Source of the DNA: a virus
Virus genome (UHGV): UHGV-1351772
Reading direction: 5' to 3' (one strand)
Length of the DNA: 64,000 nucleotides
Part shown: positions 629-64,000 of the stretch, one piece after another
Layout of the letters: each line of letters opens with the position of its first letter
Position numbering within the stretch: position 1 is the stretch's first letter
The notes under the pieces: model-generated
What the model saw: the letters and a program-made list of their open reading frames with translations, nothing else
The model's database searches: none
What the model was told of the DNA's origin: nothing
Made by a program: the position numbers and the translations under genes

Positions 629-660
629 AGCCTTTTCCAATACAAGGGGTTCATACCAAA

Positions 661-701: not shown

Positions 702-707
702 TTACAT

Positions 708-1013
708 TTAATTTTTCAGCTTAAGTTCTTTCTCCAAACCTTGTAGCTCTGGGTCACCGGCAGTAACGTCACTCATGACTTTCTTAATCGCGGCTTTACG
801 ACGATTAAGCACACGGAGCATCATCATAATCTCCCACCGTGGCCGATCTAACCACTCGTCGAAGGTCATTCTGAAATGCTCGCCTATCTGCTCACGCAGA
901 TACACTTCCATCCAGATTTCATACAGACTCCCGTATTCGGGGTTTTCAAAATCTGATAAGCCAACGTGTCTCGTCCCGGTGTCTAGGCCGACCGATAAGT
1001 CGTACGCACCCAA
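708..1013 (-). CDS. hypothetical protein (101 aa)
   Basis: Minus-strand ORF in operon context, followed by a terminator; no recognisable motif. Confidence 0.5.
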   Translation of the reverse strand: MGAYDLSVGLDTGTRHVGLSDFENPEYGSLYEIWMEVYLREQIGEHFRMTFDEWLDRPRWEIMMMLRVLNRRKAAIKKVMSDVTAGDPELQGLEKELKLKN

Positions 1014-1129
1014 AAGCTCATCGTGAGCTTCCTGATAAGTTATCGGGCGCGTGCTACGTTGTTTGAACAGAGAGGTGGTATCAAGCTTAAGCGTATTAAT
1101 GACGTGATCCGAAGGAATCTCGTTCGGGT

Positions 1130-5745: not shown

Positions 5746-7845
5746 TTACTCAATGATAGTCGCGGCCACCGTATTGTCGTATAACGACGCCGGACGTTTA
5801 CGTGACGTGTAGAAACGCACGTTGTCCAGGTTTTTCTGTTGGCCTTCGAATAACAACATCGGTACAGCTGAACGCATCGCAATCAACGTGTTGTGATCCT
5901 CGAAACGTTTGCCATCCATCACATCAGCATCTTCACTATCAAACCCAACCGCCGGGAAAGGATTGGTCGGTGATTCAACGCGTGATATCGCCAGCATAAT
6001 CGCGATGTGTGTCATCGGAATACCACCGAGCTTACGTTGGATATATTTAAACACATCAAATAACGCGTGCGTACATTGTTTCTCCGTAGCACCGCGCATC
6101 TGAACCAGTGTCGTTGGTTTTACCTTACCTGACTTCTTGCTCAAACGCATTGAGTCATCAGAGAACTGTTCGAAAGTATCCGATTTATCAGACGCAACCG
6201 AACGAAGTTTCAATTCTAACCCTGCTACAAACTCCGCCATAGATTCAGACCGATTCGTATAAATTAGTATCGGCCAACTCGGTTTCCATCCTTTCAGGGG
6301 AATCCGTACCAGCTTCTTCGACGGGAAGGTAATGTTATCGCGCTGTTTCAGGAAGAAATGTAAGAAGGCTTTCGAGAAGTTACCACAAACCCCCATACGG
6401 ACGTCAATGGGATCTTCGGCCAACACATTCCCAGCTTCATCCAACCGCAAAAAGGTCAGTTCGTTAATCTCCGGCAATGCCGTTTCGTCGATCACTTCCA
6501 AATCATCGTGATACGCGATTTGGCTGATTTCAGAATAGACTTCATCGGAAATAACGAGTTGGTATTCATCCCAATTACCGTACTGCGGTTTCTCCCGTAA
6601 ACTCAATCCTTTTACGGAGTTGTGTTTATACTCACCAAGATAATCCCGCATTCTTGGAGTCAGCACCAGATTCAGCAGATAGCGTAAGAAGTCCAGGTGT
6701 TTCGTTGAGAGAATCCCCTGTGTACCCTTTTCAGATATCGAGGTTGAGGCCAAGTGGCCTGGTGACGTTCCCGGCGAAAGGTTATAAATCAAATCACCCA
6801 TGCAGGTTGCACAAATGCTTTGACGCGCCATCCCCTTACAACACATCGCGGTACGAAACTCAATAGGTTTGCCTAAGACTTTCTCAAACTCCCCTTTCTC
6901 GAATCGTAACCACGGGCCACCCACACCTTCAAAACGATAACGCATTCCCACCATCGCATCGTACTTCTTACGCTCCAGTTTACTTTCTGTAAACGTGTGG
7001 CGATGAACGTGATGTGTACCACAATCGTCGTATTCGAAATACATTAACACGTTGGCTGCTAACTGTAGCTTACGTGACGCATATTCCGCATCGGCGATTT
7101 TATCGGTATTATACAGGTGAGTACGTGACGTCGCTCCCGCTTCTTTCAGACGGCTAATTACAGAATGTAGACCCGTAAAGAAACCTTCCCATACCTGGTT
7201 GGAATAAACGCGAGAATCAATCTCTGATGTTTTCCCACGTATATACGCCTGAAGAACCTGGTTCATTTTGATGGTCTTATCCAAGACCGACATCACCACA
7301 GGGTTTAAACGAAGTTGTGGGTCTTTGAAGATATCTTCGATAAGAAGATACGCTTCTTCGATCATATCCCGACCTTCTTCGTCGTACCCAGTAGGATACA
7401 TTTGTGCCCACTGATGAATCTGCGTAAAATTTCGGTGTTGGTAAATTTCCATCATCGTATCGTAGTCAATCGTGACGCAATACGACAACAGATTTTTCAC
7501 CGATAAGTTAAACGCATCCGCATAGACGTGCTGCTGCAATAAATAGCGGGTATCTGCTAAATCCACACCCGCTTTACGTGCTGCCACAGCTGCCAATGAC
7601 ATAAACTTCAGATGTGCGTCATCTGTAGCGGTGTCGCCATGTTTATACGCCATTTGCGAACTGATTGGGATCTGCGGATAAAATCGTGTTAGCCCCCAAT
7701 AAGGCCAACTGATTTTAATGTGGCGTCCTGACATGTTTAAGGTTATCCCGTCATCGAACGTCACTTCATATCTGCCGCGCAATAGCCACACCTGATCCGA
7801 GTTCAGTTTACACAGATCACGCACGTGAACTGGAGTGCCCTTCAT
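5746..7845 (-). CDS. multisubunit RNA polymerase beta-prime subunit, C-terminal fragment (set A)
   Basis: SISEKGTQGILSTKHL matches the conserved beta-prime block AAQSIGEPGTQLTMRTFH; start overlaps the stop of the upstream beta gene (ATGA). Confidence 0.6.
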   Translation of the reverse strand: MKGTPVHVRDLCKLNSDQVWLLRGRYEVTFDDGITLNMSGRHIKISWPYWGLTRFYPQIPISSQMAYKHGDTATDDAHLKFMSLAAVAARKAGVDLADTRYLLQQHVYADAFNLSVKNLLSYCVTIDYDTMMEIYQHRNFTQIHQWAQMYPTGYDEEGRDMIEEAYLLIEDIFKDPQLRLNPVVMSVLDKTIKMNQVLQAYIRGKTSEIDSRVYSNQVWEGFFTGLHSVISRLKEAGATSRTHLYNTDKIADAEYASRKLQLAANVLMYFEYDDCGTHHVHRHTFTESKLERKKYDAMVGMRYRFEGVGGPWLRFEKGEFEKVLGKPIEFRTAMCCKGMARQSICATCMGDLIYNLSPGTSPGHLASTSISEKGTQGILSTKHLDFLRYLLNLVLTPRMRDYLGEYKHNSVKGLSLREKPQYGNWDEYQLVISDEVYSEISQIAYHDDLEVIDETALPEINELTFLRLDEAGNVLAEDPIDVRMGVCGNFSKAFLHFFLKQRDNITFPSKKLVRIPLKGWKPSWPILIYTNRSESMAEFVAGLELKLRSVASDKSDTFEQFSDDSMRLSKKSGKVKPTTLVQMRGATEKQCTHALFDVFKYIQRKLGGIPMTHIAIMLAISRVESPTNPFPAVGFDSEDADVMDGKRFEDHNTLIAMRSAVPMLLFEGQQKNLDNVRFYTSRKRPASLYDNTVAATIIE

Positions 7846-10082
7846 TATTCATCGCCCCTTTTCATTTTCACCAATTCAAACCCTTCACAGCTGTGAATGT
7901 TTTTCATCATCCTGTCAATCTGTGAATCCCCTAACGGGAATTTATTTCGGTCTACCAGTGGACCCGGATTAGACGGGGTTTGAGATCGATAAAGCCCTAC
8001 TAAAATCTCACGATGCACCGCAGGGTTATTTGCCCTGTCGTGAACTTCTTCGTAGTTACCTGGACCATAACCCGCTAACAGTCGTTCTTCCGAAGGACCA
8101 GCCCATTTTAGCGTTTTATAGTTTATCGGATACGAACCGCGGCCTTGGTTAGACGCGTCTATCGTACCCAGATAATTCAGATACATTGACGAGATACTGG
8201 AAAACTCACGACCTGTTTTATCCAGACGTAATGTTTCCACACCACCTACGTAAAACTCATTTTTTGTCCATTCCTGTTTACCATCGAAATTAGTAATCAG
8301 GAGTTTGGATTTACGCGGTTTAAATTCACCCAACCGTTCACTGATATCGACTGGCGTGTCGTCAAGTTCATGTGGTAAGTAAATACGGATTGTAAAATCG
8401 TAAATCTCTTTGAAAAGTTCGCGTTGTAAATCCTCCGTAGGATGCGTTGCCTGTAGTGTATTGGCCCATTCTGGATTATAGCGTGATAGATAATCCATCA
8501 GGATTTCCCAGCTCTCGCTGATACGTCCTTCATCCAGCAATGGTTTGAGACGCATTTTCAACTGTTCAGACGCAGCTGACCAATACATGTGGAATAATGC
8601 TGCATAAGTCGAGCGACGAATTACAGCGTTCATCGAACGTAAAACGTGAACACGTTCACCGAATTCGTTAATCGGCATCTGTTCAACGGGTAATACACGT
8701 CCAACAATCCCTTTCGTACCCGAGCGGTCGGTAATCTTAGACGACACCGTTACCGGGATCGGATAACGAACAGCAATACGAATGGTATACGTGTTGATGG
8801 GATCGCTGAGTCCACGTTGTACTGGCGAGGTCAACTTAGAAAGAATCTGCTGACTGACATTTTCTTTACCGTATTCACCACGACGAATTGCTTCATCAAT
8901 CACCACGCGTATCTCTTCACGAAACTCGTGATAGACCTCGTACGTTTCAGAAGCGAACGCTTTTTCCAACAACACACACGCTTTCGGCGACCAGATAATA
9001 TTTTTGTCACGGGACATCGAGAAATAGAATCGTACGATGGCATTGTAATAGTCTTTCAATGCTAATGCGTATTTATCCAGTTCTCGTTTGTTCTCTTCGG
9101 TACAAGAAATATTGTTAGCACCATTCGCGCAAGACGTTTCATCACGCCACACCTGGATATCGACGATACGTGTACCGCTACGCTCCATCAGTTCTTTGTC
9201 GCCTGCAAGACGTGCTTTATAATGGACGGGATCGGCATCCACATATTCGCAACTATCAAAGAACGGAGAGACGTGTTGAGTTTCCCCAAGCGACGCATCA
9301 ATTGCACCGTAAAGCTCATCGAAACGACGCGATGCAATGACCAACCCATCGTCACGAATAGCCTCTCCTACATCCGGGAAATACCGTGGGACGCGATTAC
9401 CGTTCGGATCGATGTAACCGTAAGTATCCAGTAAAAACTCGTCTTCACGTAGCGTCTTTTCAACGATTTTCAAACCATAACCGTGGAGTTTTTGGGCGGC
9501 GTACTCAGAGATGGTGTAAGAATCCTCGATGATATCAGAATGCGAAATCGTAACGGTTGGTAGCACGACGCTATCGGCGTACTCGCCTTCCACCATACAC
9601 GACATCGTTGTAAGGATTTCATCCTTTTCCAACTGATCGGTTTCGCCACGTAAAATACTACGCAGTTTCATCGACTCACGTTTCTCAGATGAGAAGATGT
9701 TGTCGTGGTTAGTATAGAAGTTAATCTCTAGCACATCTATCATGGTTTTACCGCCCTTCATTTCTGCACGGCGGAAGAAGATAGCATGTTCTAACGCTTT
9801 AGAATCCCCACGACGACCATAACGTGTAAACGTCGCGCGGCGCTGACGACCGTCTTTGGTCATATAGTGGCAGATGCTACCGGGATCTTCTACAACGTCG
9901 TTGAACAGAAAATCGTGGTAGTTTATATCTGCCCCTGTAAAATGCGGCGATGGTTCAGGATTGTCGATAGGGACCGCAGACTTCATATGGTTGCCTACCA
10001 TCGATGCCCTTGCACCTGATACTTCGGTGATATTAATCTCACGGTCAGCCACACTGCTCATTAGCTCTACTGGCGTTTTCAT
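7845..10082 (-). CDS. multisubunit RNA polymerase beta subunit, C-terminal fragment (set A)
   Basis: KITDRSGTKGIVGRVLPVEQMP aligns with bacterial beta [24 protein letters not shown] (K..R.G.KG.......P.E.MP conserved). Confidence 0.7.
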   Translation of the reverse strand: MKTPVELMSSVADREINITEVSGARASMVGNHMKSAVPIDNPEPSPHFTGADINYHDFLFNDVVEDPGSICHYMTKDGRQRRATFTRYGRRGDSKALEHAIFFRRAEMKGGKTMIDVLEINFYTNHDNIFSSEKRESMKLRSILRGETDQLEKDEILTTMSCMVEGEYADSVVLPTVTISHSDIIEDSYTISEYAAQKLHGYGLKIVEKTLREDEFLLDTYGYIDPNGNRVPRYFPDVGEAIRDDGLVIASRRFDELYGAIDASLGETQHVSPFFDSCEYVDADPVHYKARLAGDKELMERSGTRIVDIQVWRDETSCANGANNISCTEENKRELDKYALALKDYYNAIVRFYFSMSRDKNIIWSPKACVLLEKAFASETYEVYHEFREEIRVVIDEAIRRGEYGKENVSQQILSKLTSPVQRGLSDPINTYTIRIAVRYPIPVTVSSKITDRSGTKGIVGRVLPVEQMPINEFGERVHVLRSMNAVIRRSTYAALFHMYWSAASEQLKMRLKPLLDEGRISESWEILMDYLSRYNPEWANTLQATHPTEDLQRELFKEIYDFTIRIYLPHELDDTPVDISERLGEFKPRKSKLLITNFDGKQEWTKNEFYVGGVETLRLDKTGREFSSISSMYLNYLGTIDASNQGRGSYPINYKTLKWAGPSEERLLAGYGPGNYEEVHDRANNPAVHREILVGLYRSQTPSNPGPLVDRNKFPLGDSQIDRMMKNIHSCEGFELVKMKRGDE

Positions 10083-19801: not shown

Positions 19802-20086
19802 TTACCCCGCCAATTTTAATAATTCCGAGTCAAGCGCGATACCGGCTTCCAAGTCCTCTTCAGTATCCTGGAAGAAACTGTTTATGTTGCTGATATTCTC
19901 GTTATGGAGAATCATGCAACTCGAAACCTCGTCCACATTCGTGCTTGACATAAACCCGTTGTCTGGGCGATAAGCCATGCCCAGTTCCATTTCAATCTGG
20001 TCGATTGCCAATCTACATTGTAACTGGTCGCCATCGAAATCCTGTTTGTCCACTCCATTCCTTTTGGAGCAGGTGTGCAATGACAC
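19802..20086 (-). CDS. RNA polymerase beta-prime catalytic segment (DFDGDQ), probable exon 2 of the beta-prime N-terminal gene
   Basis: Translation begins VSLHTCSKRNGVDKQDFDGDQLQ, matching the universal NADFDGDQ Mg-binding motif; listed start is GTG and an in-frame TGA lies 5 codons upstream, so it is unlikely to be an independent gene. Confidence 0.5.
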   Translation of the reverse strand: MSLHTCSKRNGVDKQDFDGDQLQCRLAIDQIEMELGMAYRPDNGFMSSTNVDEVSSCMILHNENISNINSFFQDTEEDLEAGIALDSELLKLAG

Positions 20087-20445
20087 CCTCCCATGCTTTC
20101 ACATGGGCACAGACTATATCATAACCGTAGGTATTGCTACCCGTAGGTCTCCCCCACTTCGCCGCTAAACTAAGCAGCTACTCTACTCGGTTTTACCCTT
20201 TCGATAGTCGTTGAACGATTTTCATCGCTGCTGGTTATCCATTATCACAACCCTTAGCATTATTGGTTAGCATAGGTTATCTTACGAATTGTTTCTGACT
20301 TTCGCCACCCTGTCGGGATCGTAAGCTTTAGGGGTTTCCAGCAATTCGAGGGATACGCACTAGAGGTTTCCCGTCTAGTGGGCCAGTGTTTAGCATTAGG
20401 TGCTTTGATGACGCGATCAGAAATACGCAGAGAACATTGTGTTAC
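20084..20445 (-). other. group I self-splicing intron (ORF-less), boundaries approximate (+/- 20 nt)
   Basis: Minus-strand core elements in canonical order: P aattgctggaaa (20335..20346), Q aaccagcagc (20227..20236), R gttcaacgacta (20205..20216), S atgatatagtct (20111..20122), P9 hairpin cccatg-tgaaag-catggg (20090..20107), with a G before the exon-2 frame. Confidence 0.65.
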
Positions 20446-21759
20446 ATCTGTCAGTACCGCTGAGATGAACAATGTCTGAATAGAAAGTTGAACCAATGTT
20501 GGGTTACGCAGAACTTCCAACATTAAGCCGAATCCGCCGGGGGATTCTTTAATCAACTCATTAATAATTTCATGTACCAACGGTACATACTGCATTGCCG
20601 CAAATGCAATGATGCGCTCACATTGTCGAGGTGTATAATCACGTCGACCTAACTTGTTCTCAATGTGAACACTCGCCAACGGAACCAACCAACGCCAAGG
20701 CGCAATAACTTTCAACGCATCATGAGGTTCAGAGATAGGAGAGATAGTCACACGTCCGCCCCACGGTACGTGTGTTGACCCGAGTTTTGCCCGATAGAAC
20801 CCAGGTTTACCTTCCATCACTTCCTGACGATGGTCAATATAGAAATACGCAAGCTGTCGATTCGCTTTGATCGCACGACGAATAATAAATCGTGGTTCGA
20901 TACGGCGTGCATTCGTGTACAACAACGCCACATTTTTTACTGCGTCGATAGCGCTGGTATAAACCGGATCGATAAAAATACCTTGTCGGCGCTCCTCCGT
21001 AACGATCAGTTTTGATGAAATAATCGGAAGGTGTCTTGGAAAGAATGAGAACGATTGTTCCTGAAAGAACTCACGCCATTCTAAGCGCACGCGCTCACTC
21101 TCATAACGGTTATTTTTCGTTGGTGGATAAATCTCCTTCCAAGCTTCCGGAGACGTAAGGATATTAAAGACGGTTCGATGGTGGTCGATAAAGTTTCGAA
21201 TTCCCCGTTCGAAGCCATGTTCGCCGAGTATTCTTTTCACCACGCGAGCACGTGTTCCCTCGTCCTTTTCTGGATGGTAGTACGGATCGATTAGCCACAG
21301 CAGTAAATCAGACCCGCGTTCTACCGTCACTTTGTTACGATTAAATTTTTTCAGCTTAGAGCCAAAGAAGGCATTAAAGAGAGACCAAAAACGTGGATTG
21401 ATAAAGTTACCCATCTCATCGGGAGCGCGTAACCAGACATCAGACGTAATCCGATGTTCAGAAACAACATGTCCGCAATGTGGGCAACGAAGCCCAAGAT
21501 TATAACGATGGGTAATAGGTGATTCGCAGGTCAGACTGCAAATAGGAGCCGAGTTGAGTGTTTCATCAACGATTCGGTTTTGGAGTATTTGGTTAATCAT
21601 CTCCGACGCTTCGATGGTATCCATCGTTGCAGCAACGTCATTGATAATAATCGGTGGTTTGTAGCCTTTTTCCTCCGCTTCTTGTATACAGTCACGTAAC
21701 ATCTTGTCGTGACTAATTAGTCGCCCCGAAATCCCGTAATATTCTAGTTTATGTTCCAC
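20260..21759 (-). CDS. multisubunit RNA polymerase beta-prime subunit, N-terminal part (set A), exon 1; last ~55 codons are probably intron read-through
   Basis: Cys cluster CSLTCES...CPHCGH (zinc ribbon), GKPGFYRAKLGSTHVPWGGRVTISPI matching [27 protein letters not shown], and VLRNPTLVQLSIQTLF matching VLLNRAPTLHRLGIQAF; homology stops ~25 codons before the expected NADFDGD. Confidence 0.6.
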   Translation of the reverse strand: MEHKLEYYGISGRLISHDKMLRDCIQEAEEKGYKPPIIINDVAATMDTIEASEMINQILQNRIVDETLNSAPICSLTCESPITHRYNLGLRCPHCGHVVSEHRITSDVWLRAPDEMGNFINPRFWSLFNAFFGSKLKKFNRNKVTVERGSDLLLWLIDPYYHPEKDEGTRARVVKRILGEHGFERGIRNFIDHHRTVFNILTSPEAWKEIYPPTKNNRYESERVRLEWREFFQEQSFSFFPRHLPIISSKLIVTEERRQGIFIDPVYTSAIDAVKNVALLYTNARRIEPRFIIRRAIKANRQLAYFYIDHRQEVMEGKPGFYRAKLGSTHVPWGGRVTISPISEPHDALKVIAPWRWLVPLASVHIENKLGRRDYTPRQCERIIAFAAMQYVPLVHEIINELIKESPGGFGLMLEVLRNPTLVQLSIQTLFISAVLTDVTQCSLRISDRVIKAPNAKHWPTRRETSSAYPSNCWKPLKLTIPTGWRKSETIRKITYANQ

Positions 21760-35680: not shown

Positions 35681-35756
35681 TGGCGGGGGTGGGAAGTTTC
35701 GAACTCCCAACCTTCGGTTTTGGAGACCGCTGCACCACCAATTGTGCTACACCCCC
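35681..35756 (-). tRNA. tRNA-Trp (anticodon CCA), 76 nt with encoded CCA
   Basis: Hand-folded cloverleaf from the reverse complement: acceptor GGGGGTG/CACCCCC, D-stem GCAC/GTGC, anticodon loop CUCCAAA (U33, CCA, A37), T-arm GGGAG-TTCGAAA-CTTCC; anticodon and T arms nearly identical to E. coli tRNA-Trp. Confidence 0.8.
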
Positions 35757-55369: not shown

Positions 55370-56008
55370 TTATGGAGTTACAGTGTATTCGTTTAACGCA
55401 GCGTCAAAAATACCCCGAGAGATTTCCTTTGCATCAGAAATCGTAATCTGAGGTTCCCGTTCACTACACGCTACAGTAAGCTCGTAGAATGAACCACCCT
55501 TTAATAGCTGGTTAGCATTCAAACGAACGTCTTGGTTAAGCGCTACTGCTAACGTGTGAGTGTATCCGTTGTTTGCCAGTCGAACTAAACGCAGTTCACC
55601 GACCATACTGGGTTTAATTTCCCAGTTTGATAAGCGGTGAGGAACAATCCACACTTCATTAGCGCGGTAAGGCTCAGCCGACAGCTCTATCGAGGGCTGG
55701 ACAACATCACGTTCGTCGAACCCATACAGATAAAAACGTGGCACAGCGGTTGTGGTTTCCGCAGGTGTAAAGTAGCGACGGACACCACGCAGGCAGCGTT
55801 CTAAATCGACAGAGCAGCAAATACGGGGTACCGTTTTGTCTTCGTCTCTGTAAACGCTATAAGGAATCCGAGGTGTGAAAACCGAAATCTTTCGATCGCT
55901 GATATGCAACGGGGCGCTATCTAACTTTTTCAAAGAAACTTTCTTTGCGGTGCGCGGCAGTTGTTGCTCTAACCACTTCACCAACGAAGGTTCAATAGTA
56001 TCAGCCAT
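55370..56008 (-). CDS. hypothetical protein (212 aa)
   Basis: Minus-strand ORF contiguous with the next gene. Confidence 0.5.
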   Translation of the reverse strand: MADTIEPSLVKWLEQQLPRTAKKVSLKKLDSAPLHISDRKISVFTPRIPYSVYRDEDKTVPRICCSVDLERCLRGVRRYFTPAETTTAVPRFYLYGFDERDVVQPSIELSAEPYRANEVWIVPHRLSNWEIKPSMVGELRLVRLANNGYTHTLAVALNQDVRLNANQLLKGGSFYELTVACSEREPQITISDAKEISRGIFDAALNEYTVTP

Positions 56009-56812
56009 TTACCACTTCCCGTTACCTAAACCCATAACACGCAGGTTAGTTTTCTTATTAGCGATGGCCAGGTACTCCTGCGCTAACGCACGAACTTCAC
56101 CACGACGAGATTCTGTCGCGATAGTAGACGTAGTGTTAGGATTTCGCAGAATGTCCTCCAGCGCCTGGAGGGAGACGCGACGGTCCAGCAGAACGCGTGT
56201 GGATTCTTGAGCCACTTTACTACCGCGTTGAATCGCAGAGTATTTGTTACAAATCTGCAACCCGTCCTCGATAACCCAGTCAAACGTTACCAGGCGATCC
56301 AGGCGACGCGTTTTCACACCACCTACATAACCTTCACGCACGATTGCACGCAGAGAGAAACACACATTCTGGTGTGGGTTTTCGAGCGCTTCTGCTAAGT
56401 ACGGACCACGTTCACGGTTCGGCTTAATCCAGCCCCAGATTTCCATAACCGGCAACCCGTTACAGGTTTGGTCGGTTGGAATCACTTCAACTTCACGAAT
56501 GTGCATACAGACGTTTTTCGTCTCAATCCATTCGTTGCGATCAATCCATTGCGCTTCGGTCATACCAGGTTCTGGTGCTGGGTGATCTTCTTCCCCGAAC
56601 AGATTCCCTGCCTTCACTTTACGCATAAAGATATTCGAGCGTTCGAATACGTGCTTAGACTCGTTATAGGCGTAAAAAATCCCTTCCGAGTTAAAGATAT
56701 TCAAAGCACCCAATAGTACGCGGTAATAACCATCCGCGTCTTTCTCCAGTGTGGCTGGAGCGTTAACACCGGCTAACGCTACGCAGTTGTAACGCAGTGT
56801 TAAATTGTCCAT
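56009..56812 (-). CDS. hypothetical protein (267 aa)
   Basis: Minus-strand ORF. Confidence 0.5.
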   Translation of the reverse strand: MDNLTLRYNCVALAGVNAPATLEKDADGYYRVLLGALNIFNSEGIFYAYNESKHVFERSNIFMRKVKAGNLFGEEDHPAPEPGMTEAQWIDRNEWIETKNVCMHIREVEVIPTDQTCNGLPVMEIWGWIKPNRERGPYLAEALENPHQNVCFSLRAIVREGYVGGVKTRRLDRLVTFDWVIEDGLQICNKYSAIQRGSKVAQESTRVLLDRRVSLQALEDILRNPNTTSTIATESRRGEVRALAQEYLAIANKKTNLRVMGLGNGKW

Positions 56813-56843
56813 TGTTTTCCCCGAGTAAAAGTAAAAGGTAAGA

Positions 56844-57578
56844 TTACCTCATAAACAAATCTTCGAGCGGTTCGGCACGCACCGGGTCAACCTGTAGCGC
56901 AGAACGAATACCACGTTTAAGTTCTACGTCTGCAAGTTTCGCCAGTCTCGACGTTTTGTTAAGTGAACCACTGCGCAACGGAATAAACTGCACAGGGTTG
57001 TTAAGATCGCTATCTTTCTTCAGCGTGTAACGGAAGAACGTTCTCGGATCACCTACTTTACGCTGCGTGTGTGCTGCGTAAACGTCAGCGGTAATCTGAT
57101 CGGCAAATACAGTAAAACCGTTCCATTTCTTGACTTTATCAGGTGCCAAGAGTTCAGCATCATCCGCTGCAGTAAACCAGAAAGGACGATTACCAAAGTC
57201 GTAAATATACGACGCAATGTTGTAAATAGGGTGAGACAACACCTGTAAATTGCGGTTGGGGAAAACCACTGTACCGGGATCAAAACGAAATTCGTAATAA
57301 GGAACGCCAAAGACGTCGATCTCTTCAAACGCCGTTGGGGTAATTTCCATAAGCGTTGTCACGCTGGACACCCCATATGTTTTACGGTCGGTAGAAATCG
57401 CAAAGATCCCTACAATTGTTACCGTAGAAGAAATAACCGCCAACTCCTTCGCCACAAACCCAACGGGGATGTAAATGTAACACCCCCCTTTGGTAGTGGT
57501 GACCGTGCCGTTATTTACCAAGTCCGCATGAACCTTAGTAGGGTCACGACGGGCTGTTTCAATCGCACTCACGATCAC
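56844..57578 (-). CDS. hypothetical protein (244 aa)
   Basis: Minus-strand ORF. Confidence 0.5.
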   Translation of the reverse strand: MIVSAIETARRDPTKVHADLVNNGTVTTTKGGCYIYIPVGFVAKELAVISSTVTIVGIFAISTDRKTYGVSSVTTLMEITPTAFEEIDVFGVPYYEFRFDPGTVVFPNRNLQVLSHPIYNIASYIYDFGNRPFWFTAADDAELLAPDKVKKWNGFTVFADQITADVYAAHTQRKVGDPRTFFRYTLKKDSDLNNPVQFIPLRSGSLNKTSRLAKLADVELKRGIRSALQVDPVRAEPLEDLFMR

Positions 57579-57590
57579 CTCCTAAGCGCG

Positions 57591-59051
57591 TTAAAGTTTA
57601 TCGACAAATACTGAGCCTGCGATCCAGTTCAGTACATAGTCAATCATCCAACTGGTTGCGGCTTCTGCCGGGTCGGTGTTCTCAATCATCGCGGTATGAA
57701 TCGTACGCATCAGCGGATCAATTTCGTAGGCGCAGAATACGGAGTTACATGCAGTCCGGATGATAAACAACGTAATGTCTTCGTCTGCGTTGACAAAGAA
57801 ATCATCACAAATACCCATAACAACCTGCTTGACTTCTTCGCGAGTACGCGTCAGTTCGCCAACAGTCAGGTAGCCCTGGTCGAGTTGGTCGATTGCAATC
57901 GAGAACGCTGTTTTCAGCGCCTGACGGTTACGACTTACCCAGTCGAGTTCATTTCGTTTCTGAACGATAATCGCACGACGATTGTAAGCTTCAACGTAGG
58001 CTTTCTGGTTTTCCAGCAGAGATGCGACACGTGCGGAAACGTTATAGTCACCTTCGTCCATCAGGTAAATGGCACCCAACAGGGCTTCAACGATGCCGCC
58101 TTTTTCCAGGTAGTCGTCCATCGTTTCCTGACAGATATAGACGTTTTTCTCGTTGGTATCGTAAGAGTAAACGATGTTACCTGTGGCGACACGGTTAGCC
58201 ACCGCTTTTTCGAAACCGTATACCCAACCGATAGATGTGTAATACGCACGACCCATTTCCGCTTTCCATTTCAGGGCGTCAACACCTGAGTCAGGCCATG
58301 GACGTTCAATGAAGAACGAAGACAACAGCAGTACCAGAACACGTTCTTTTACCATCTCCGGCGCTTTATCTGCAACAGGTACGGTGTAGTTACCTGCCAG
58401 CAGCAGTTTTGCTGCATCGTACATGCTGAGGTTCAGGTCGTTCAGTAATTTACGTACCAGTTCATCGTACGCTTTTACACCTGTTTCCGGAATCTCGATG
58501 TCGGTCGGTACATCGAACTTGATTGGGTCGTAAGTTGTGCCATTACCCATCGGGTTGGCGATTTCTTGAATCAGCGCCTGGACAACCGGGGAATCTACAC
58601 ACGGATCGATACCTACCGGAATCAGGTTCCAGTCTTCGACCAACGGTTTGACATCTTCAATCGTGTTATTCTGGATAACCAGCTGCACAAACGGTTGAAC
58701 AACGTTACGGGCAAAGTCCAGCATCCCGTTGCAACGCTGAATGGCCATGTTTTTCAGTTCGAATAGCGTGGTTTCATGATCGTCAACACGCAGCGCTTCA
58801 ACTTCAACAGCACCGTCACGAATAATCGAAGCTTCCGCTGTACCGTCTACTGGACGTTTAAGCTGCGTAATCGCGGGCAGTTCCTGGAAGAACTGTTCGT
58901 CGGTGATTGTGGTATCGAAAACGCGGGTAGGGTCGACCGCACGGTTGAGCAAATCAACCGGAGAGTCAACGTCTGTGCCAAGCTGAACATTATGCTGTTT
59001 GCACAGTTTCATGGCGTTAGTAACCGCATTCAGCGAGTATAAACTGATCAT
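57591..59051 (-). CDS. hypothetical protein (486 aa)
   Basis: Minus-strand ORF. Confidence 0.5.
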   Translation of the reverse strand: MISLYSLNAVTNAMKLCKQHNVQLGTDVDSPVDLLNRAVDPTRVFDTTITDEQFFQELPAITQLKRPVDGTAEASIIRDGAVEVEALRVDDHETTLFELKNMAIQRCNGMLDFARNVVQPFVQLVIQNNTIEDVKPLVEDWNLIPVGIDPCVDSPVVQALIQEIANPMGNGTTYDPIKFDVPTDIEIPETGVKAYDELVRKLLNDLNLSMYDAAKLLLAGNYTVPVADKAPEMVKERVLVLLLSSFFIERPWPDSGVDALKWKAEMGRAYYTSIGWVYGFEKAVANRVATGNIVYSYDTNEKNVYICQETMDDYLEKGGIVEALLGAIYLMDEGDYNVSARVASLLENQKAYVEAYNRRAIIVQKRNELDWVSRNRQALKTAFSIAIDQLDQGYLTVGELTRTREEVKQVVMGICDDFFVNADEDITLFIIRTACNSVFCAYEIDPLMRTIHTAMIENTDPAEAATSWMIDYVLNWIAGSVFVDKL

Positions 59052-59341
59052 TGTTTAACCTCTTTATTCGTGCTGATGTTCGCCTGAAGCATCGCGTACA
59101 AACGCGCGCCCACCAGATCTGCGATATCACGTTTCAGCAGTTTCTGATCACCGATACGGTCAGACATTCCTGAGTTACCGCGAATCAGACCATGCACAAT
59201 CTCCGTTGCTAATTCGACAGTATTACCTAAAGACACGTAGTTGGTACGTTGAATGGGACTGTATCCCTCCACGTTTTGCTGGGTAATATTTTTCCCAGTC
59301 GGAATACCGTGTCGCTGTTTGATTTTATCTAGAATAGACAT
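59048..59341 (-). CDS. hypothetical protein (97 aa)
   Basis: Minus-strand ORF with ATGA overlap to the upstream gene. Confidence 0.45.
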   Translation of the reverse strand: MSILDKIKQRHGIPTGKNITQQNVEGYSPIQRTNYVSLGNTVELATEIVHGLIRGNSGMSDRIGDQKLLKRDIADLVGARLYAMLQANISTNKEVKQ

Positions 59342-59388
59342 TCTCTTCTCCGGAGTTTACAAGGGTGGGAGCGACCCACCCCTCGAGA

Positions 59389-62300
59389 TTATTTAAGTGT
59401 CGCGGGTAAATCAGGCACAGCCTCCCCATCGAGTATACGCCCGATGAGAATCCCGGCTTGTTCACCTACAGCATTCGCGGTACCGATACGTTGGATTGAA
59501 CCTACGATACGCGCATCGACGGAATCACGACCGAACAACACGTCCAGGTCATCACCATCCTCTGTTTTGTTGTCGCCGTACATGACTTCTTGTACGGTGG
59601 TTTTTAGCTGGTTAGCAATAACCATCTTATCCGCAGCGGCCATCTCAACGTCGTGTGTAATAAAGAATCGAACACAAAGTGAGTTAAAGGCCAAGGGTAC
59701 ACCTTCAACACGGTAGTCGCCGTTTACACTGCCTGAAACCGGATCACCGCGTCCGACTGCCAGTGCGGCCTTACGACGAATTCTGTCGTATTTACGCACC
59801 AGTTCAGCAAGACTTGGTGTCATGTCTTCGGTTTCACCGTGATACACCACTTCGATTTTATCCACGATACCACGTACCCCTGCACGAGGTGCGTACGAAC
59901 TTAAACTTTGCAACGTTGCGGCTGCTTCCTGACTAAAGGCACTCATATCGCCTGTCAAGTCGTCAGTAAACGTGCATAGGATTGTGTCGACGTCTACGTG
60001 GTCGCCCTCATTCACGATTTCCAAAAGCATTTGGTTGCTGTTAATCGTTACTTCTTTCAGCTTTGTTACCTGCCCCACCATTTTCTTCGCGAACCGTTCA
60101 GAAATTGCGTTGGAGTCTTCGATAACTTCTTCAGCTTCTAATAAAGCAACGGTAGCCAGCACCCCGTTTTTCCAGGAAACCTGAGTAGGATCGTAAATAT
60201 CAGGTTCAAAGTGTTGCTCGTTATACGTAATCACTGCTCCGGCCGGGAGCTTGTCACCGGCTTTCCAGCGTGTTACCAAGGTGTGCGGATAGAAGGTACC
60301 TTCGTGGGGGCCGAACCAGCGCCCTAGAGGAAAGGCTTCTTTACTTCCATCTTCGTACGTAATTTCAATGTGGTCTTTCGACAGACCAGTAATCTTACCT
60401 GCTTTATCAATAACGCGTGCATGTTTCACCGACGTACGGTGTGCGACGAATTTCTCCTGTTCAGTACGGTACGGGGTTGTGGTTGCCCCATTACAACTGG
60501 TGGCAGAACCTAACTGAATCCCAACGAAGTTTTGACGCTTTGCGTCGTCCATTAACGTATCGGGTACTAACCCGTCAATAAACGAAAGGGTATCGCTTGG
60601 TTTCGGGGTTTTCTCTTCACGTTTAAACGTAGTACCGTCAACGGTGTCAAAACGTGGGTTATTGGTGACGAAAGCAGTAATACCTACGTCGCCGTTATCT
60701 ACGGTGTTACCCGAGACTATCCCGATATCGCTGGGTTGGAACTCACGTGTGTGGTAGACCATCGTTTTACGATTACGACCACCTGTACCCCCCATCGTAA
60801 TAACGTCTTTTTCTTTAATTGACTGGATAGGGTTAGCACCTGGTGCCAAAAGTACCGACGGGTCGGAGTTAATTGCACCCCAAACCATGTCTTGCGTCAG
60901 TTCGAACTTACGGTTACTGCCCGGTGCGTTATTGTAGTTACGCATCGCTCTGACCATCGCGGTATAGATGTGGTAGGCAATCCTCTGATTTCCTAAGAAC
61001 ATCATTTCATCGCCGTTAATCTCTGGTAAAGAGTGGTCAGTTTGTAACAGTTCGTTAGAACGTTCCAGCAAGCCAATAAAGGTTTCCGGCTCACCCATTT
61101 TCCTGAGGATACGTGCGTGCATGTCGTCAACAAACGCGGACCGCATCTGTTTCAGCTCGTTGATGTACCGTGGTGTTAGGCCATCTGCATCACGTAATAA
61201 GTTCAGGTAAATGTCTTCACGGTCTGCTTCTGATTCGGTATAAGCAACCAGGTGTTTGAGATAACGATCCAAACCATGCAGAATCATCTTCTGTTGATCG
61301 TTATCGCAAGTAACTAAAAGTTTACAGTCTTGTAGTCGAATAATGCTGTCGTAGGCATTCTTATCAACACGTTGCCCTGCGGGAACCAACTCGTATTGGA
61401 TACCGAAATGTTTCAACATTCCCTGGAGTCCAAGATAGAACGAGAAGATAAAACCAAGCGACAAAGATTTACCCATCAAAGACAGCTCGGTCATTTCGCG
61501 AGGCACTTTCTGGTTATTAAAGCCCAGTACCTCTGCGATAGTTCCCACCGGTTCAACTTTGTTTCCGTTCACACCGTAAAGCATGGATTTGTCATCCATT
61601 GCCAGGATTGTTTCACTACGCGGACGTTTCGCCACCGGCAAAAGTTTGGCAGCATCGGCGTCTCTGAGTTGCTCGTCGTTAAAGAAGTTAACGGCTTCTT
61701 TGTAGTCGAAGTTCCACATATAGCCGTTCGCATTAAAGCTGGCAATACGACGCGCAATCTCCGTATACTGACGCGGCAGATGTTGCGTAGGATCGAACAC
61801 ATTTGCTAAACGTGCGTCGGTGACTTCGGTGTTTGTCGGGTCAACGGCGCGTGTGATGATCGCATTGGTTAACCAACGACCGTAGTCGTTTGCGACCTTA
61901 TCACTACGACGGACAAAGTTTTTACCGTAAGCGGTAGTCAGTGCGACAGTATCCGGTGCAACCTTACGGATCGGTAAGTCCACACGTTGCCGACGCATGG
62001 TGTATTCGACACCATTAGCGACCCAGGTACCGTCTTCGGTCAAGCCTGGGATGGAGAAGCGAACGGTTGTTGGTTCACCACCGACTGGCTGAACACGTAA
62101 AGTGTGGTGCTCGATAGTCCCTGTAACAGAAACCTCTTTTTCCACCGTGTGGTTGTGAACTGCCAGACCCAAACGTTGTGAGCTGGCGACCGCCGCCAGT
62201 ACGTCCTTCGTCATCATGGTCTGGTTGTACTGTTTCACCATCTGGTCGGTGACGTTCTCTGCCCACCCTTCATCAGTAACAAGTCGCTGAACTTTTTTCG

Positions 62301-63555
62301 GTTCGGCTTTAACGACAATATCTTTCTCGTGAACAGTCAGTGCTTCCCCGTAGGTTTCTTTCGGGTTATACGGGTTAGGTAACTGAACGAAACGTTTAGA
62401 CGATTCTGACAGGAACTGATATGCTTTAGAACTTAAGCGGCCCGCTTCAGCTAAGCGTTGTGCTTCCTGTTTAATAATCTCGTCATGCGGAATGACTTTC
62501 TCGACGACGATAGTCGTCGGTTTGACGTCTTCCTTCGGTTCTTCAATAACAACGTCTTCTTTTTCATCGAAGGTGTTATCGGATTCGACCACAGCGTCAT
62601 TAACAACGTCGTCATCATCGACAACATCAACGGTTTCTTCTTCGACGTCTTTAAGGAAAACACGCTCGTCGCCTTCAGGCGTTAGGAATTCCGCTTCGTA
62701 CGCGTTAGACGGTGCTTGTGTCATTACACGCACCAGCGTACGGTAGAACATCCTGGCCATTTGGTCGTCACTTAAACGACCGCCGGATGACTTACGCATT
62801 TTCTCTACAACACCCATGTTCATGGACGTAAAGCCCGTGTTGTGGGTGAAGATAAAGTTCATTCGTGACAGCTGAGTTAAATCCATTCCCGCGAATAAGG
62901 AATCGGATTGTTTTCCATAAGCCCAAGCAAACAACTCCAATAACCACAGCAAGTTGAAGTCCTGGAACTTCTCAATCTTACTCTTAACGCGATCGTTATA
63001 GGTTGTTTGAAACTTCTGGAACGAAGGTAGAGTCGAACCTAGTTCAATAACGAAATAGTTCTGACGCATGTATTCTTGCGTGTCGTATTTGAACTGGTTA
63101 ATCATCAACAGTTGGATGTTACGCAGTCTATCGTACCAGGCTAACTGGGTATCAGGATAGTAATAGTGCGATAGCATCGGTGTGTAGTTCTCGACCAGGA
63201 GAACTTTTAAGTCTTTGCGAACCAGATCGTCTGAGGTAAGACGACGCATCGGTCGGTTTGCACGGTGGTAAGCAAAGATAGCACGTTCTTGCCCCTGAAC
63301 AGGTTTGTTGCGCGGATGACCGCTAATACCGTCTTCCGGTAATTTAAAGTGGTGACGAACCTGTGCAGGTTTTTCTAACGGTTGAATAATCTCGAGTGTT
63401 GCAGGTGGCGCTAACACCACCTGGTCGAGATCAATGACATGGAGTACAGAACCACGTGGTATCTGTAGCTTCTCGAGCGGGATAATCCTCGGATTACCAA
63501 ACTCGTCAGTTTTACGCACCGAGAAGCGTTGGTTAAACTGTTTAATGAGCAGCAT
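59389..63555 (-). CDS. large RNA polymerase beta-prime-like subunit, C-terminal part (set B), 1388 aa
   Basis: Starts 9 bp after the stop of the DYDGD-containing beta-prime fragment; contains ITMGGTGGRNRKTMVYHT, resembling the beta-prime block SIGEPGTQLTMRTFH; assignment partly by position. Confidence 0.45.
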   Translation of the reverse strand: MLLIKQFNQRFSVRKTDEFGNPRIIPLEKLQIPRGSVLHVIDLDQVVLAPPATLEIIQPLEKPAQVRHHFKLPEDGISGHPRNKPVQGQERAIFAYHRANRPMRRLTSDDLVRKDLKVLLVENYTPMLSHYYYPDTQLAWYDRLRNIQLLMINQFKYDTQEYMRQNYFVIELGSTLPSFQKFQTTYNDRVKSKIEKFQDFNLLWLLELFAWAYGKQSDSLFAGMDLTQLSRMNFIFTHNTGFTSMNMGVVEKMRKSSGGRLSDDQMARMFYRTLVRVMTQAPSNAYEAEFLTPEGDERVFLKDVEEETVDVVDDDDVVNDAVVESDNTFDEKEDVVIEEPKEDVKPTTIVVEKVIPHDEIIKQEAQRLAEAGRLSSKAYQFLSESSKRFVQLPNPYNPKETYGEALTVHEKDIVVKAEPKKVQRLVTDEGWAENVTDQMVKQYNQTMMTKDVLAAVASSQRLGLAVHNHTVEKEVSVTGTIEHHTLRVQPVGGEPTTVRFSIPGLTEDGTWVANGVEYTMRRQRVDLPIRKVAPDTVALTTAYGKNFVRRSDKVANDYGRWLTNAIITRAVDPTNTEVTDARLANVFDPTQHLPRQYTEIARRIASFNANGYMWNFDYKEAVNFFNDEQLRDADAAKLLPVAKRPRSETILAMDDKSMLYGVNGNKVEPVGTIAEVLGFNNQKVPREMTELSLMGKSLSLGFIFSFYLGLQGMLKHFGIQYELVPAGQRVDKNAYDSIIRLQDCKLLVTCDNDQQKMILHGLDRYLKHLVAYTESEADREDIYLNLLRDADGLTPRYINELKQMRSAFVDDMHARILRKMGEPETFIGLLERSNELLQTDHSLPEINGDEMMFLGNQRIAYHIYTAMVRAMRNYNNAPGSNRKFELTQDMVWGAINSDPSVLLAPGANPIQSIKEKDVITMGGTGGRNRKTMVYHTREFQPSDIGIVSGNTVDNGDVGITAFVTNNPRFDTVDGTTFKREEKTPKPSDTLSFIDGLVPDTLMDDAKRQNFVGIQLGSATSCNGATTTPYRTEQEKFVAHRTSVKHARVIDKAGKITGLSKDHIEITYEDGSKEAFPLGRWFGPHEGTFYPHTLVTRWKAGDKLPAGAVITYNEQHFEPDIYDPTQVSWKNGVLATVALLEAEEVIEDSNAISERFAKKMVGQVTKLKEVTINSNQMLLEIVNEGDHVDVDTILCTFTDDLTGDMSAFSQEAAATLQSLSSYAPRAGVRGIVDKIEVVYHGETEDMTPSLAELVRKYDRIRRKAALAVGRGDPVSGSVNGDYRVEGVPLAFNSLCVRFFITHDVEMAAADKMVIANQLKTTVQEVMYGDNKTEDGDDLDVLFGRDSVDARIVGSIQRIGTANAVGEQAGILIGRILDGEAVPDLPATLK

Positions 63556-63564
63556 TGCTTAGCC

Positions 63565-64000
63565 TTATGGGTTCTTTAATAACGCTTGCGTTGCACGTTT
63601 AATCACGTTGTTGATAGGATTGATTTTAAAGTTCCCATCAGAATCGAACCAGTAGTTTTTCGAGTGTATCCAGTTCCGGTTTTCCTCGAGCGCTTCCTGG
63701 GACATAGGCGCGTTAAACGACCCGGTATCGCCATCGTAGTCACCCCCTAAGCCACCTAGACGTGAAGGGTGTGGTGCCATCGACTCAACGAAGGTAGGAA
63801 CCGACCGGTCAGGGTAGCTGATAGCCCCTCGGGGTTTTTCAGTTTCCCAGTCATCTTCCAGTTCTTTTAAATATAAAGATGACGTGGTGGTCTCCAATCT
63901 TATGGTCGATGAATACGTCGAGCCTCGGCCTGTAACGGGATAACGTGTAACGAAACCGAAATAATCGTTCCAAAGTTCGTAGCCCGACAAATAAAGCAAT
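63565..64000 (-). CDS. RNA polymerase beta-prime subunit, N-terminal/catalytic fragment (set B), partial; continues beyond the window end
   Basis: GGDYDGDTGSFNAPMSQEALEENRNW...GNFKINPINNVI aligns with bacterial [26 protein letters not shown]...GEPIIVPSQDVV (Mg-binding Asp triad); the frame is open to the window edge. Confidence 0.6.
   Translation of the reverse strand, partial: LLYLSGYELWNDYFGFVTRYPVTGRGSTYSSTIRLETTTSSLYLKELEDDWETEKPRGAISYPDRSVPTFVESMAPHPSRLGGLGGDYDGDTGSFNAPMSQEALEENRNWIHSKNYWFDSDGNFKINPINNVIKRATQALLKNP

What the first reader, a model, noticed from the sequence alone, without database searches (positions are those of the whole stretch)
59389..64000. Second multisubunit RNAP: beta-prime split into two polypeptides right after the catalytic loop
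The fragment at 63565..64000 carries DYDGD and the following conserved segment and stops 9 bp before a 1388-aa ORF that appears to continue beta-prime. Unlike the intron case at 20 kb, the tight 9-bp spacing with no ribozyme elements indicates a true split gene. Together with the beta and beta-prime C genes at 5.7-10.1 kb, the window encodes parts of two distinct RNA polymerases, the signature of phiKZ-like phages that are independent of host RNAP. Which set is virion-packaged is not determinable from sequence.
Basis: partly seen in the sequence, partly recalled or inferred. Interest (0 to 1): 0.5.

Follow-up and report, generated by a model that had tools for sequence, protein, structure and literature searches.

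The report
Jumbo-phage virion RNA polymerase genes
These are two neighbouring genes for the RNA polymerase that phiKZ-like giant phages pack into their heads: one ends just after the catalytic DYDGD loop, and the next is the start of the other large subunit (beta), not the rest of beta-prime. The arrangement is already well described in relatives such as Salmonella phage SPN3US.

Summary
The sequence observation holds. An ORF running off the window (63565..64000, minus strand) carries GGDYDGD, stops at TAA, and a 1388-aa ORF starts 9 nt later.

The central interpretation fails. The 1388-aa protein is not the continuation of beta-prime. A profile of its family matches only RNA polymerase beta (RpoB), in colinear stretches that include the beta double-psi barrel with its two invariant lysines. 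It gave no RpoC match even with all filters off.

The upstream fragment is the C-terminus of a ~540-aa beta-prime N-terminal subunit. It ends near E. coli beta-prime residue ~517.

The two genes are orthologues of SPN3US gp240 (beta'N, 82% identity) and gp241 (betaN, 77%), and of phiKZ gp180 and gp178. They sit in the same conserved block, ending in the prohead protease gene. In SPN3US these proteins are virion components by mass spectrometry, so by orthology this is the virion polymerase.

The true beta-prime continuation (gp42 homologue) and beta C-terminus (gp218 homologue) are not in the window. A gp244 homologue, the candidate beta'C, lies at 56844..57578.

The non-virion set lies at 5.7-10.1 kb and ~20 kb, the latter holding a group I intron. 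This is known biology and of low novelty.

The parts
63565..64000 (-). C-terminal 144 codons plus stop of the virion RNAP beta'N subunit gene. The gene runs off the window; full length in relatives is ~537-541 aa. It carries the beta' double-psi barrel catalytic loop.
   Evidence: 82% identical to SPN3US gp240 residues 396-537. 97% identical to the 541-aa protein of the closest public contig, L005. Matches phrog_2986 at E 1.8e-54. The family profile A2 hits only beta' chains: AR9 nvRNAP beta'N 7S00_d at E 1e-12, and bacterial and plastid beta'. It matches E. coli RpoC 447-507 and not RpoB.
63727..63741 (-). DYDGD codons, the Mg2+-binding DxDGD motif of beta'.
   Evidence: The three Asp and the Gly are invariant across the 19-sequence family alignment. 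The motif aligns with E. coli NADFDGD 458-464.
63556..63564 (-). 9-nt spacer GGCTAAGCA between the beta'N stop (TAA, 63567..63565) and the betaN ATG. It holds a second in-frame TAA. The conserved CCAxAAGGC around the stop is a probable ribosome-binding site for betaN.
   Evidence: Spacer length in relatives: 3 nt (L005), 15 nt (phiEaH2), 18 nt (SPN3US), 2 nt (phiKZ exon 2).
59389..63555 (-). Virion RNAP betaN subunit gene, 1388 aa. It holds a phage-specific N-terminal region and the beta homology region, from the protrusion through the beta double-psi barrel. The beta C-terminus is missing.
   Evidence: 77% identical to SPN3US gp241 and 30% to phiKZ gp178 over the full length. Matches phrog_3148 at E 0. 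Profile A1 hits only RpoB in the PDB, E 2.5e-11. E. coli RpoB stretches 125-150, 651-741 and 1049-1134 align colinearly with profile positions 503-528, 982-1074 and 1296-1379.
62695..63555 (-). BetaN residues 1-287: a folded, phage-specific N-terminal domain with no beta homology.
62494..62694 (-). BetaN residues 288-354: an acidic, predicted-disordered linker (37% Asp+Glu).
   Evidence: pLDDT is below 50 for residues 288-328 and 340-354. Composition.
59596..59637 (-). AADKMVIANQLKTT: the beta double-psi barrel segment with the two conserved lysines, K1310 and K1318. It is equivalent to E. coli GDKMAGRHGNKG.
   Evidence: K1310 and K1318 are invariant in the 15-sequence alignment. The segment aligns to E. 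coli RpoB 1049-1134 and Thermus beta 822-916.
59048..59341 (-). 97-aa ORF, homologue of SPN3US gp242. It belongs to the conserved block; function unknown.
57591..59051 (-). 486-aa ORF, homologue of SPN3US gp243 and positional counterpart of phiKZ gp177 (head/ejection protein). It is not an RNAP subunit.
   Evidence: The role of gp243 in head assembly is from PMC5694885.
56844..57578 (-). 244-aa ORF, homologue of SPN3US gp244 and phiKZ gp176. This is the published candidate fifth vRNAP subunit (beta'C).
   Evidence: 86% identical to SPN3US gp244 and 29% to phiKZ gp176. Genetics and proteomics are in PMC5105663 and PMC5694885. My own tests for beta' similarity were inconclusive.
56009..56812 (-). 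Prohead protease gene (SPN3US gp245 / phiKZ gp175 homologue). It closes the syntenic head-gene block.
   Evidence: 81% identical to gp245. The L005 homologue carries Pfam Peptidase_S80.
7845..10082 (-). Context, the other polymerase: non-virion RNAP beta C-terminal subunit (SPN3US gp34 homologue).
   Evidence: Pfam RNA_pol_Rpb2_6 at E 1.7e-5, above the curated cut-off.
5746..7845 (-). Context: non-virion RNAP beta' C-terminal subunit (SPN3US gp35 homologue).
   Evidence: Weak Pfam RNA_pol_Rpb1_5 match. gp35 is named nvRNAP beta' in PMC5105663.
19826..21759 (-). Context: non-virion RNAP beta'N gene (SPN3US gp23 homologue). A group I intron at 20090..20407 interrupts it just upstream of its DFDGD codons.

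Best explanation
The region holds two adjacent, co-oriented genes of the virion-packaged multisubunit RNA polymerase (vRNAP) of a phiKZ-like jumbo phage close to Salmonella phage SPN3US and Erwinia phage phiEaH2.

The upstream gene is only partly in the window. It encodes beta'N, the N-terminal third of beta-prime. It ends about 53 residues after the Mg2+-binding DYDGD loop, near E. coli beta' residue ~517.

The downstream 1388-aa gene encodes betaN. This is a ~290-residue phage-specific domain, an acidic disordered linker, and then beta from the protrusion through the beta double-psi barrel with its two DNA/RNA-contacting lysines, ending near E. coli beta residue ~1140.

Together the two genes supply the two double-psi barrels that form the catalytic centre.

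The rest of the enzyme is encoded elsewhere. Beta'M (bridge helix, trigger loop; SPN3US gp42 homologue) and betaC (gp218 homologue) lie outside the window. The candidate beta'C (gp244 homologue) lies three genes downstream at 56844..57578.

Inferred from SPN3US and phiKZ work:
- The five polypeptides assemble before being loaded into the prohead.
- They are ejected with the DNA and transcribe early genes independently of host RNAP.
- The second polymerase, encoded at 5.7-10.1 kb and ~20 kb of the window, then takes over.

What is shown here: homology, subunit identity, split positions and synteny.

What is inferred: virion packaging, assembly order and temporal role. Also inferred is that the short spacer with a conserved AAGG gives translational coupling of beta'N and betaN.
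For: Subunit identity:
- The betaN family profile hits 42 RpoB sequences and no RpoC in the PDB (best E 2.5e-11), in four colinear stretches.
- Head-to-head against E. coli, it matches RpoB at E 1.2e-9 and gives no RpoC hit with filters off.
- The beta barrel lysines K1310 and K1318 are invariant.
- The beta'N family profile hits only beta' chains, including the AR9 beta'N chain. That chain likewise ends about 20 residues after the aligned segment.

Orthology:
- 82% identity to SPN3US gp240.
- 77% identity to gp241.
- 30% identity over the full length to phiKZ gp178.
- Similarity to the phiKZ gp180 C-terminus at E 6e-10.

Synteny:
- The order beta'N, betaN, 97 aa, ~490 aa, ~240 aa, prohead protease is the same in the window, L005, phiEaH2, SPN3US and phiKZ.

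Virion status of the orthologues:
- SPN3US gp240, gp241, gp42, gp218 and gp244 were detected in virions. All are lost together in am mutants of gp241, gp218 or gp244 (PMC5105663, PMC5694885).
- phiKZ gp180 is incorporated into virions and co-precipitates with gp178, gp80 and gp149 (PMC10612078).

Separate polypeptides:
- Family members listed are mostly ~475-580 aa (one of 692 aa) for beta'N and mostly ~1385-1430 aa (one of 1623, one of 961) for betaN. None has the ~1930 aa expected of a fusion.

Other:
- A distinct paralogous set is present in the window.
- Sigma-70-like promoters are scarce in this region: 2 found against 9.2 expected.
Against: - Nothing here measures packaging or activity for this particular phage. 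Virion status rests on orthology.
- Pfam models do not recognise either protein. Single-sequence searches of the PDB were uninformative. The subunit calls therefore rest on family profiles built from 15-19 sequences.
- The beta'C assignment of the 244-aa ORF got no significant support from my profile or fold searches.
- The beta'M and betaC genes were not seen because they fall outside the window.
Confidence: 0.93

Rival explanations
1. One reading: beta-prime is one gene split in two at this junction, and the 1388-aa ORF supplies the rest of beta-prime (bridge helix, trigger loop, clamp C-terminus).
For: The upstream ORF does end soon after DxDGD. The next ORF is large, co-oriented, in the same frame and only 9 nt away.
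Against: The family profile of the 1388-aa protein matches only beta (RpoB), including the beta-specific GDK...NKG barrel segment. It gives no match to E. coli RpoC at E<=1000 with filters off. Its orthologue SPN3US gp241 is the published betaN, and the published beta' continuation is gp42 (PMC5105663). No gp42 homologue is in the window.
Confidence: 0.02
2. The gene pair belongs to the non-virion (middle/late) polymerase, and the 5.7-10.1 kb genes belong to the virion enzyme.
For: The sequence of this phage alone carries no direct mark of packaging.
Against: The pair is orthologous at 77-82% identity to SPN3US gp240 and gp241, which are found in virions by mass spectrometry. The 5.7-10.1 kb genes are orthologous to gp34 and gp35, and gp35 is named nvRNAP in PMC5105663. 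The pair sits in the head-gene block ending in the prohead protease, as in phiKZ gp180-gp175, which are annotated as structural head proteins.
Confidence: 0.03
3. Beta'N and betaN are made as one fusion protein by stop-codon readthrough, since the two ORFs are in the same frame in this clade.
For: The ORFs are in frame in the window, L005, phiEaH2 and SPN3US.
Against: The window has two in-frame TAA stops in the spacer, and phiEaH2 and SPN3US have TGA plus TAA. In phiKZ the ORFs are out of frame, with a 2-nt spacer. In SPN3US, gp240 (59.6 kDa) and gp241 (159 kDa) peak in different gel slices (6 and 9), consistent with their separate masses (PMC5694885). No fused homologue appears among the database hits.
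Confidence: 0.02

Closest known systems
Salmonella phage SPN3US vRNAP subunits gp240 (beta'N) and gp241 (betaN), within the gp240-gp245 block
   Same: Gene order, orientation and lengths match: about 537-541 aa, and 1388 versus 1401 aa. Identity is 82% and 77%. Shared features are the DYDGD motif, the beta barrel lysines, the long non-beta N-terminal region of betaN, and the downstream gp242, gp243, gp244 and protease genes.
   Different: The spacer is 9 nt rather than 18 nt, and the stop codon lies two codons later. The acidic linker is 13 residues shorter. No experimental data exist for this phage.
Pseudomonas phage phiKZ vRNAP gp180 (beta'N) and gp178 (betaN)
   Same: Same subunits and same block order, down to the head protease gp175. 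BetaN is 30% identical over the full length. Beta'N ends at the equivalent place, with its stop 2 nt before the betaN ATG.
   Different: In phiKZ the beta'N gene is interrupted inside the catalytic motif (GAD|FDGD), with gp179 lying in the gap. The window's vRNAP beta'N is uninterrupted there. In the window it is the non-virion beta'N that carries a group I intron at the equivalent spot.
Non-virion RNAPs of jumbo phages with solved structures: AR9 (7S00/7S01) and phiKZ (gp55, gp74, gp71-73, gp123, gp68)
   Same: Beta and beta' are each split into pieces. The beta'N piece ends shortly after DxDGD: AR9 beta'N aligns with the beta'N family profile (A2, which includes the window fragment) up to about 20 residues from its end. 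The catalytic core of two double-psi barrels is the same (PMC8287921).
   Different: It is a paralogous set with a different role (middle/late genes, not packaged) and has a sigma-like fifth subunit. The window encodes its own copy of this set elsewhere.
Naturally split beta' in cyanobacteria and plastids (gamma/beta' or beta'/beta'') and archaea (A'/A'')
   Same: Beta' is delivered as separate polypeptides that assemble into one enzyme. Plastid and cyanobacterial N-terminal pieces are among the profile hits.
   Different: In those systems the N-terminal piece is 624-688 aa, so it extends well beyond the catalytic loop. Here the split falls near E. coli residue ~517. In those systems the next gene does continue beta', whereas here the next gene is beta.

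Membership tests
Jumbo-phage (phiKZ-like / Chimalliviridae-type) vRNAP beta'N subunit (SPN3US gp240 / phiKZ gp180) | Homology to the N-terminal part of beta', with an invariant DxDGD catalytic loop. | tested here: met
   Profile A2 hits only beta' chains. It matches E. coli RpoC 38-66, 237-356 and 447-507. D-x-D-G-D is invariant. DYDGD lies at 63741..63727.
Jumbo-phage (phiKZ-like / Chimalliviridae-type) vRNAP beta'N subunit (SPN3US gp240 / phiKZ gp180) | The polypeptide terminates shortly after the catalytic loop. The bridge helix and trigger loop are absent. | tested here: met
   The stop comes 53 residues after DYDGD. The end of the profile corresponds to E. coli beta' ~517 of 1407. Listed family members are mostly ~475-580 aa, with one of 692 aa.
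Jumbo-phage (phiKZ-like / Chimalliviridae-type) vRNAP beta'N subunit (SPN3US gp240 / phiKZ gp180) | Orthology and synteny with the virion set rather than the non-virion paralogue. | tested here: met
   82% identity to gp240. It falls in phrog_2986, whereas the window's nvRNAP beta'N falls in phrog_2987. The gp240-gp245 block is conserved.
Jumbo-phage (phiKZ-like / Chimalliviridae-type) vRNAP beta'N subunit (SPN3US gp240 / phiKZ gp180) | The protein is physically present in the virion head and is ejected. | not testable with these tools
   Known for the SPN3US and phiKZ orthologues (PMC5105663, PMC5694885, PMC10612078). It needs proteomics of this phage.
Jumbo-phage vRNAP betaN subunit (SPN3US gp241 / phiKZ gp178) | Homology to beta, including the beta double-psi barrel with its two conserved lysines. 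| tested here: met
   (RpoB only). K1310 and K1318 are invariant.
Jumbo-phage vRNAP betaN subunit (SPN3US gp241 / phiKZ gp178) | A long N-terminal region without beta homology. | tested here: met
   [not shown]
Jumbo-phage vRNAP betaN subunit (SPN3US gp241 / phiKZ gp178) | The beta C-terminus is missing and is supplied by a separate small subunit (gp218-like). | tested here: met
   The ORF ends near E. coli beta ~1140 of 1342 and Thermus beta ~916 of 1119. No gp218 homologue is in the window. Whether the complete genome has one could not be checked.
   No RpoC hit appears among the 43 PDB matches. There is no E. coli RpoC match at E<=1000 with filters off. Pfam finds no Rpb1 domains.
Gene interrupted by an intron (as at 20 kb) | A ribozyme between the two coding segments, and coding continuity of one protein across the gap. 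| tested here: not met
   Rfam finds nothing near 63.5 kb. The spacer is 9 nt. The two ORFs are different subunits.
vRNAP beta'C subunit (SPN3US gp244 / phiKZ gp176), for the 244-aa ORF at 56844..57578 | Orthology to gp244 and gp176, in the same position upstream of the prohead protease gene. | tested here: met
   86% identity to gp244 and 29% to gp176. Synteny.
vRNAP beta'C subunit (SPN3US gp244 / phiKZ gp176), for the 244-aa ORF at 56844..57578 | Detectable similarity to the beta' C-terminal region (a17-a20). | tested here: inconclusive
   [not shown]

The most novel reading that the evidence does not exclude
Probability: 0.3. Interest if true: 0.4.

Novelty: already known. Interest (0 to 1): 0.1.

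Why it matters
The main value is correct annotation. Jumbo-phage RNAP pieces are routinely labelled 'RNA polymerase beta subunit' regardless of which subunit they are, as in PHROGs and in the GenBank records seen. A reader working from motifs can then easily chain beta'N to betaN.

With the right assignment:
- The window holds the two genes that supply both catalytic barrels of the injected, host-independent early polymerase.
- It also holds the candidate fifth subunit.
- It holds three genes of the second polymerase.

This adds one more SPN3US/phiEaH2-like phage to a well-studied core gene set. It does not change what is known about these enzymes.

Tried and rejected
- Pfam scan of both ORFs found nothing. 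Pfam on SPN3US gp42, gp218, the full-length beta'N and the 244-aa ORF also found nothing.
- Single-sequence phmmer against the PDB gave noise (laccases) for betaN. For beta'N it gave only sub-threshold beta' fragments. Family profiles were needed.
- Readthrough fusion of the two in-frame ORFs was considered and rejected. There are two stops, phiKZ is out of frame, the SPN3US proteins run separately, and no fused homologue exists.
- An intron or intein at the junction was rejected (9-nt spacer).
- The sigma-70 promoter and terminator scan of 56-64 kb was uninformative. It showed only a scarcity of promoter-like sites, and no terminator-like site was reported on the coding strand at the junction.
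- I looked for gp42 and gp218 homologues in the window. There are none; the gp41 homologue runs off at position 2.
Full report
**What is in the sequence**

Everything here is on the minus strand.

- An open frame runs from the window edge (63999) to a TAA stop at 63567..63565. It reads ...MAPHPSRLGGLGGDYDGDTGSFNAPMSQEALEENRNWIHSKNYWFDSDGNFKINPINNVIKRATQALLKNP*.
- The DYDGD codons lie at 63741..63727, with 53 residues between the motif and the stop.
- Nine nucleotides (GGCTAAGCA) separate the stop from the ATG at 63555. That ATG opens a 1388-aa ORF ending at 59389.

Two details were not noted. The two ORFs share a reading frame. The spacer contains a second in-frame TAA.

**Which phage this is**

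- The region is about 75% identical in DNA to Erwinia phage phiEaH2, Stratton and Asesino. It is also similar to SPN3US-like Salmonella phages.
- The closest proteins (94-97% identity) come from contigs in Salmonella enterica sequencing data.
- The window therefore comes from a jumbo phage of the SPN3US/phiEaH2 group.

**Identity of the 1388-aa ORF**

- Pfam does not recognise it.
- PHROGs calls it 'RNA polymerase beta subunit', but PHROGs uses that label for beta' pieces too.
- Single-sequence search of the PDB gave only noise.
- A 15-sequence family alignment, reaching down to 19% identity, was searched as a profile against all PDB chains. It returned 43 sequences at E<=1. Forty-two are RNA polymerase beta and none is beta'. 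The best is Thermus beta at E 2.5e-11.
- The Thermus match has four colinear stretches: profile 504-527 to beta 117-140, 907-967 to 396-457, 984-1093 to 532-639, and 1296-1387 to 822-916.
- In a direct test against E. coli RpoB and RpoC with all HMMER filters off, the profile matched RpoB at E 1.2e-9. The matched residues were 125-150, 651-741 and 1049-1134. It produced no RpoC alignment even at E<=1000.
- The last stretch contains AADK(1310)MVIANQLK(1318)TT, which aligns with E. coli GDKMAGRHGNKG. Both lysines are invariant in the family. These are the two lysines of the beta double-psi barrel, as described for phiKZ gp71-73 (PMC8287921).

The protein is therefore beta, not beta'. It stops near E. 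coli beta residue ~1140 of 1342.

**Identity of the upstream fragment**

- It is 82% identical to residues 396-537 of SPN3US gp240.
- It is 97% identical to the C-terminus of the 541-aa protein in the closest contig.
- A 19-sequence family profile hits only beta' chains. The best hit is the beta'N chain of the Bacillus phage AR9 non-virion polymerase (7S00/7S01, E about 1e-12). Plastid, cyanobacterial and bacterial beta' follow.
- Against E. coli it matches RpoC 38-66, 237-356 and 447-507, and does not match RpoB.
- The profile ends about 10 positions after the last aligned residue. The polypeptide therefore ends near E. coli beta' ~517 of 1407, long before the bridge helix and trigger loop.
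- The AR9 chain ends at the equivalent place.
- The window's own non-virion beta'N paralogue ends about 70 residues after its DFDGD.

A beta' break shortly after the catalytic loop is thus real. It is a general, ancestral feature of jumbo-phage polymerases.

**Why this is not a gene split at this junction**

The gene order is the same in five genomes: the window, L005, phiEaH2, SPN3US (gp240-gp245) and phiKZ (gp180-gp175). The order is:

1. beta'N
2. betaN
3. a ~97-aa ORF
4. a ~490-aa head protein
5. a ~240-aa protein
6. the prohead protease

The junction itself drifts between genomes:

| Genome | Spacer before the betaN ATG |
|---|---|
| Window | 9 nt |
| L005 | 3 nt |
| phiEaH2 | 15 nt |
| SPN3US | 18 nt |
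| phiKZ | 2 nt, out of frame |

- A conserved CCAxAAGGC around the stop probably serves as the ribosome-binding site for betaN.
- No member of either family in the searches has the ~1930 aa expected of a fusion.
- Rfam finds no ribozyme near the junction.
- The scan reported no terminator-like site on the coding strand at the junction.
- Co-transcription and translational coupling are therefore plausible, but they are inferred.

**Where the rest of the enzyme is**

Published work on SPN3US assigns the subunits as follows: gp240 is beta'N, gp42 is beta'M, gp244 is beta'C, gp241 is betaN and gp218 is betaC. All five were detected in virions by mass spectrometry. All five are lost together when gp241, gp218 or gp244 is knocked out (PMC5105663, PMC5694885).

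- tblastn of SPN3US gp42 and gp218 against the window finds nothing.
- The gp41 homologue runs off the window at position 2. The gp42 homologue should therefore lie just outside.
- The gp244 homologue is inside the window at 56844..57578, at 86% identity.

I tried to test the beta'C assignment of that ORF independently:

- The AlphaFold model is moderate, with pLDDT 72.5. It has a confident beta-rich N-terminal half and a disordered last 42 residues.
- Foldseek found nothing.
- The family profile found no beta'.

This is a hint, not evidence. The assignment still rests on the published genetics.

**The N-terminal region of betaN**

- Residues 1-287 are predicted with high confidence.
- Residues 288-354 are acidic (37% D+E) and disordered.
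- The beta-like part follows.
- Thomas et al. noted this non-beta extension and proposed that it targets the complex to the head.
- In phage 201phi2-1 an N-terminal propeptide is cleaved at residue 275, whereas in SPN3US the protein is not processed (PMC5694885).
- Its function remains open.

**Two polymerases in the window**

The second set is:

| Window coordinates | SPN3US homologue | Supporting evidence |
|---|---|---|
| 7845..10082 | gp34 | Pfam RNA_pol_Rpb2_6 above the cut-off |
| 5746..7845 | gp35, named nvRNAP beta' in PMC5105663 | weak Pfam RNA_pol_Rpb1_5 match |
| 19826..21759 | gp23 | group I intron at 20090..20407 just before DFDGD |

By orthology and synteny, the 59-64 kb set is the virion enzyme and the low-coordinate set is the non-virion enzyme. 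Direct proof for this phage would still need proteomics.

**Verdict**

A second RNAP and a beta' that ends after the catalytic loop are both correct. The central claim that the 1388-aa ORF continues beta' is refuted, because it is betaN of the virion polymerase.
- The arrangement is a conserved, published core feature of phiKZ-like jumbo phages.
- Novelty is nil beyond a new sequence variant, and interest is low.

Noticed in passing
window 20090..20407 (-), within 19826..21759: A group I intron (Rfam RF00028, 56.9 bits) interrupts the non-virion RNAP beta'N gene (SPN3US gp23 homologue). It lies just upstream of the DFDGD codons, and exon 2 begins ...NGVDKQDFDGDQ. SPN3US gp23 aligns as residues 6-456 and then 445-528 across the gap.
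   Followed up: partly
L003 (phiKZ) 1..2745: The annotated phiKZ gp180 (vRNAP beta'N) ends at ...LAPLGAD, inside the catalytic motif. The remainder (FDGDTVSFNAV...PKQRD*) is encoded about 1.4 kb downstream, after gp179, and stops 2 nt before the gp178 ATG. The catalytic-loop codons are thus interrupted in phiKZ's virion beta'N gene and in this window's non-virion beta'N gene.
   Followed up: partly
[not shown]
   Followed up: partly
[not shown]
   Followed up: partly
window 35684..35756 (-): A tRNA gene (Rfam RF00005, 60.6 bits).
   Followed up: no
window 56000..64000: Sigma-70-like promoter matches are scarcer than in shuffled sequence: 2 found against 9.2 +/- 2.8 expected. This fits transcription independent of host RNAP.
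   Followed up: no
window 63553..63567 (-) and relatives: Beta'N and betaN are in the same reading frame in the window, L005, phiEaH2 and SPN3US, separated by one or two stop codons. The stop position shifts between close relatives. For example, TAA in the window is AAA in L005, which adds two codons.
   Followed up: yes
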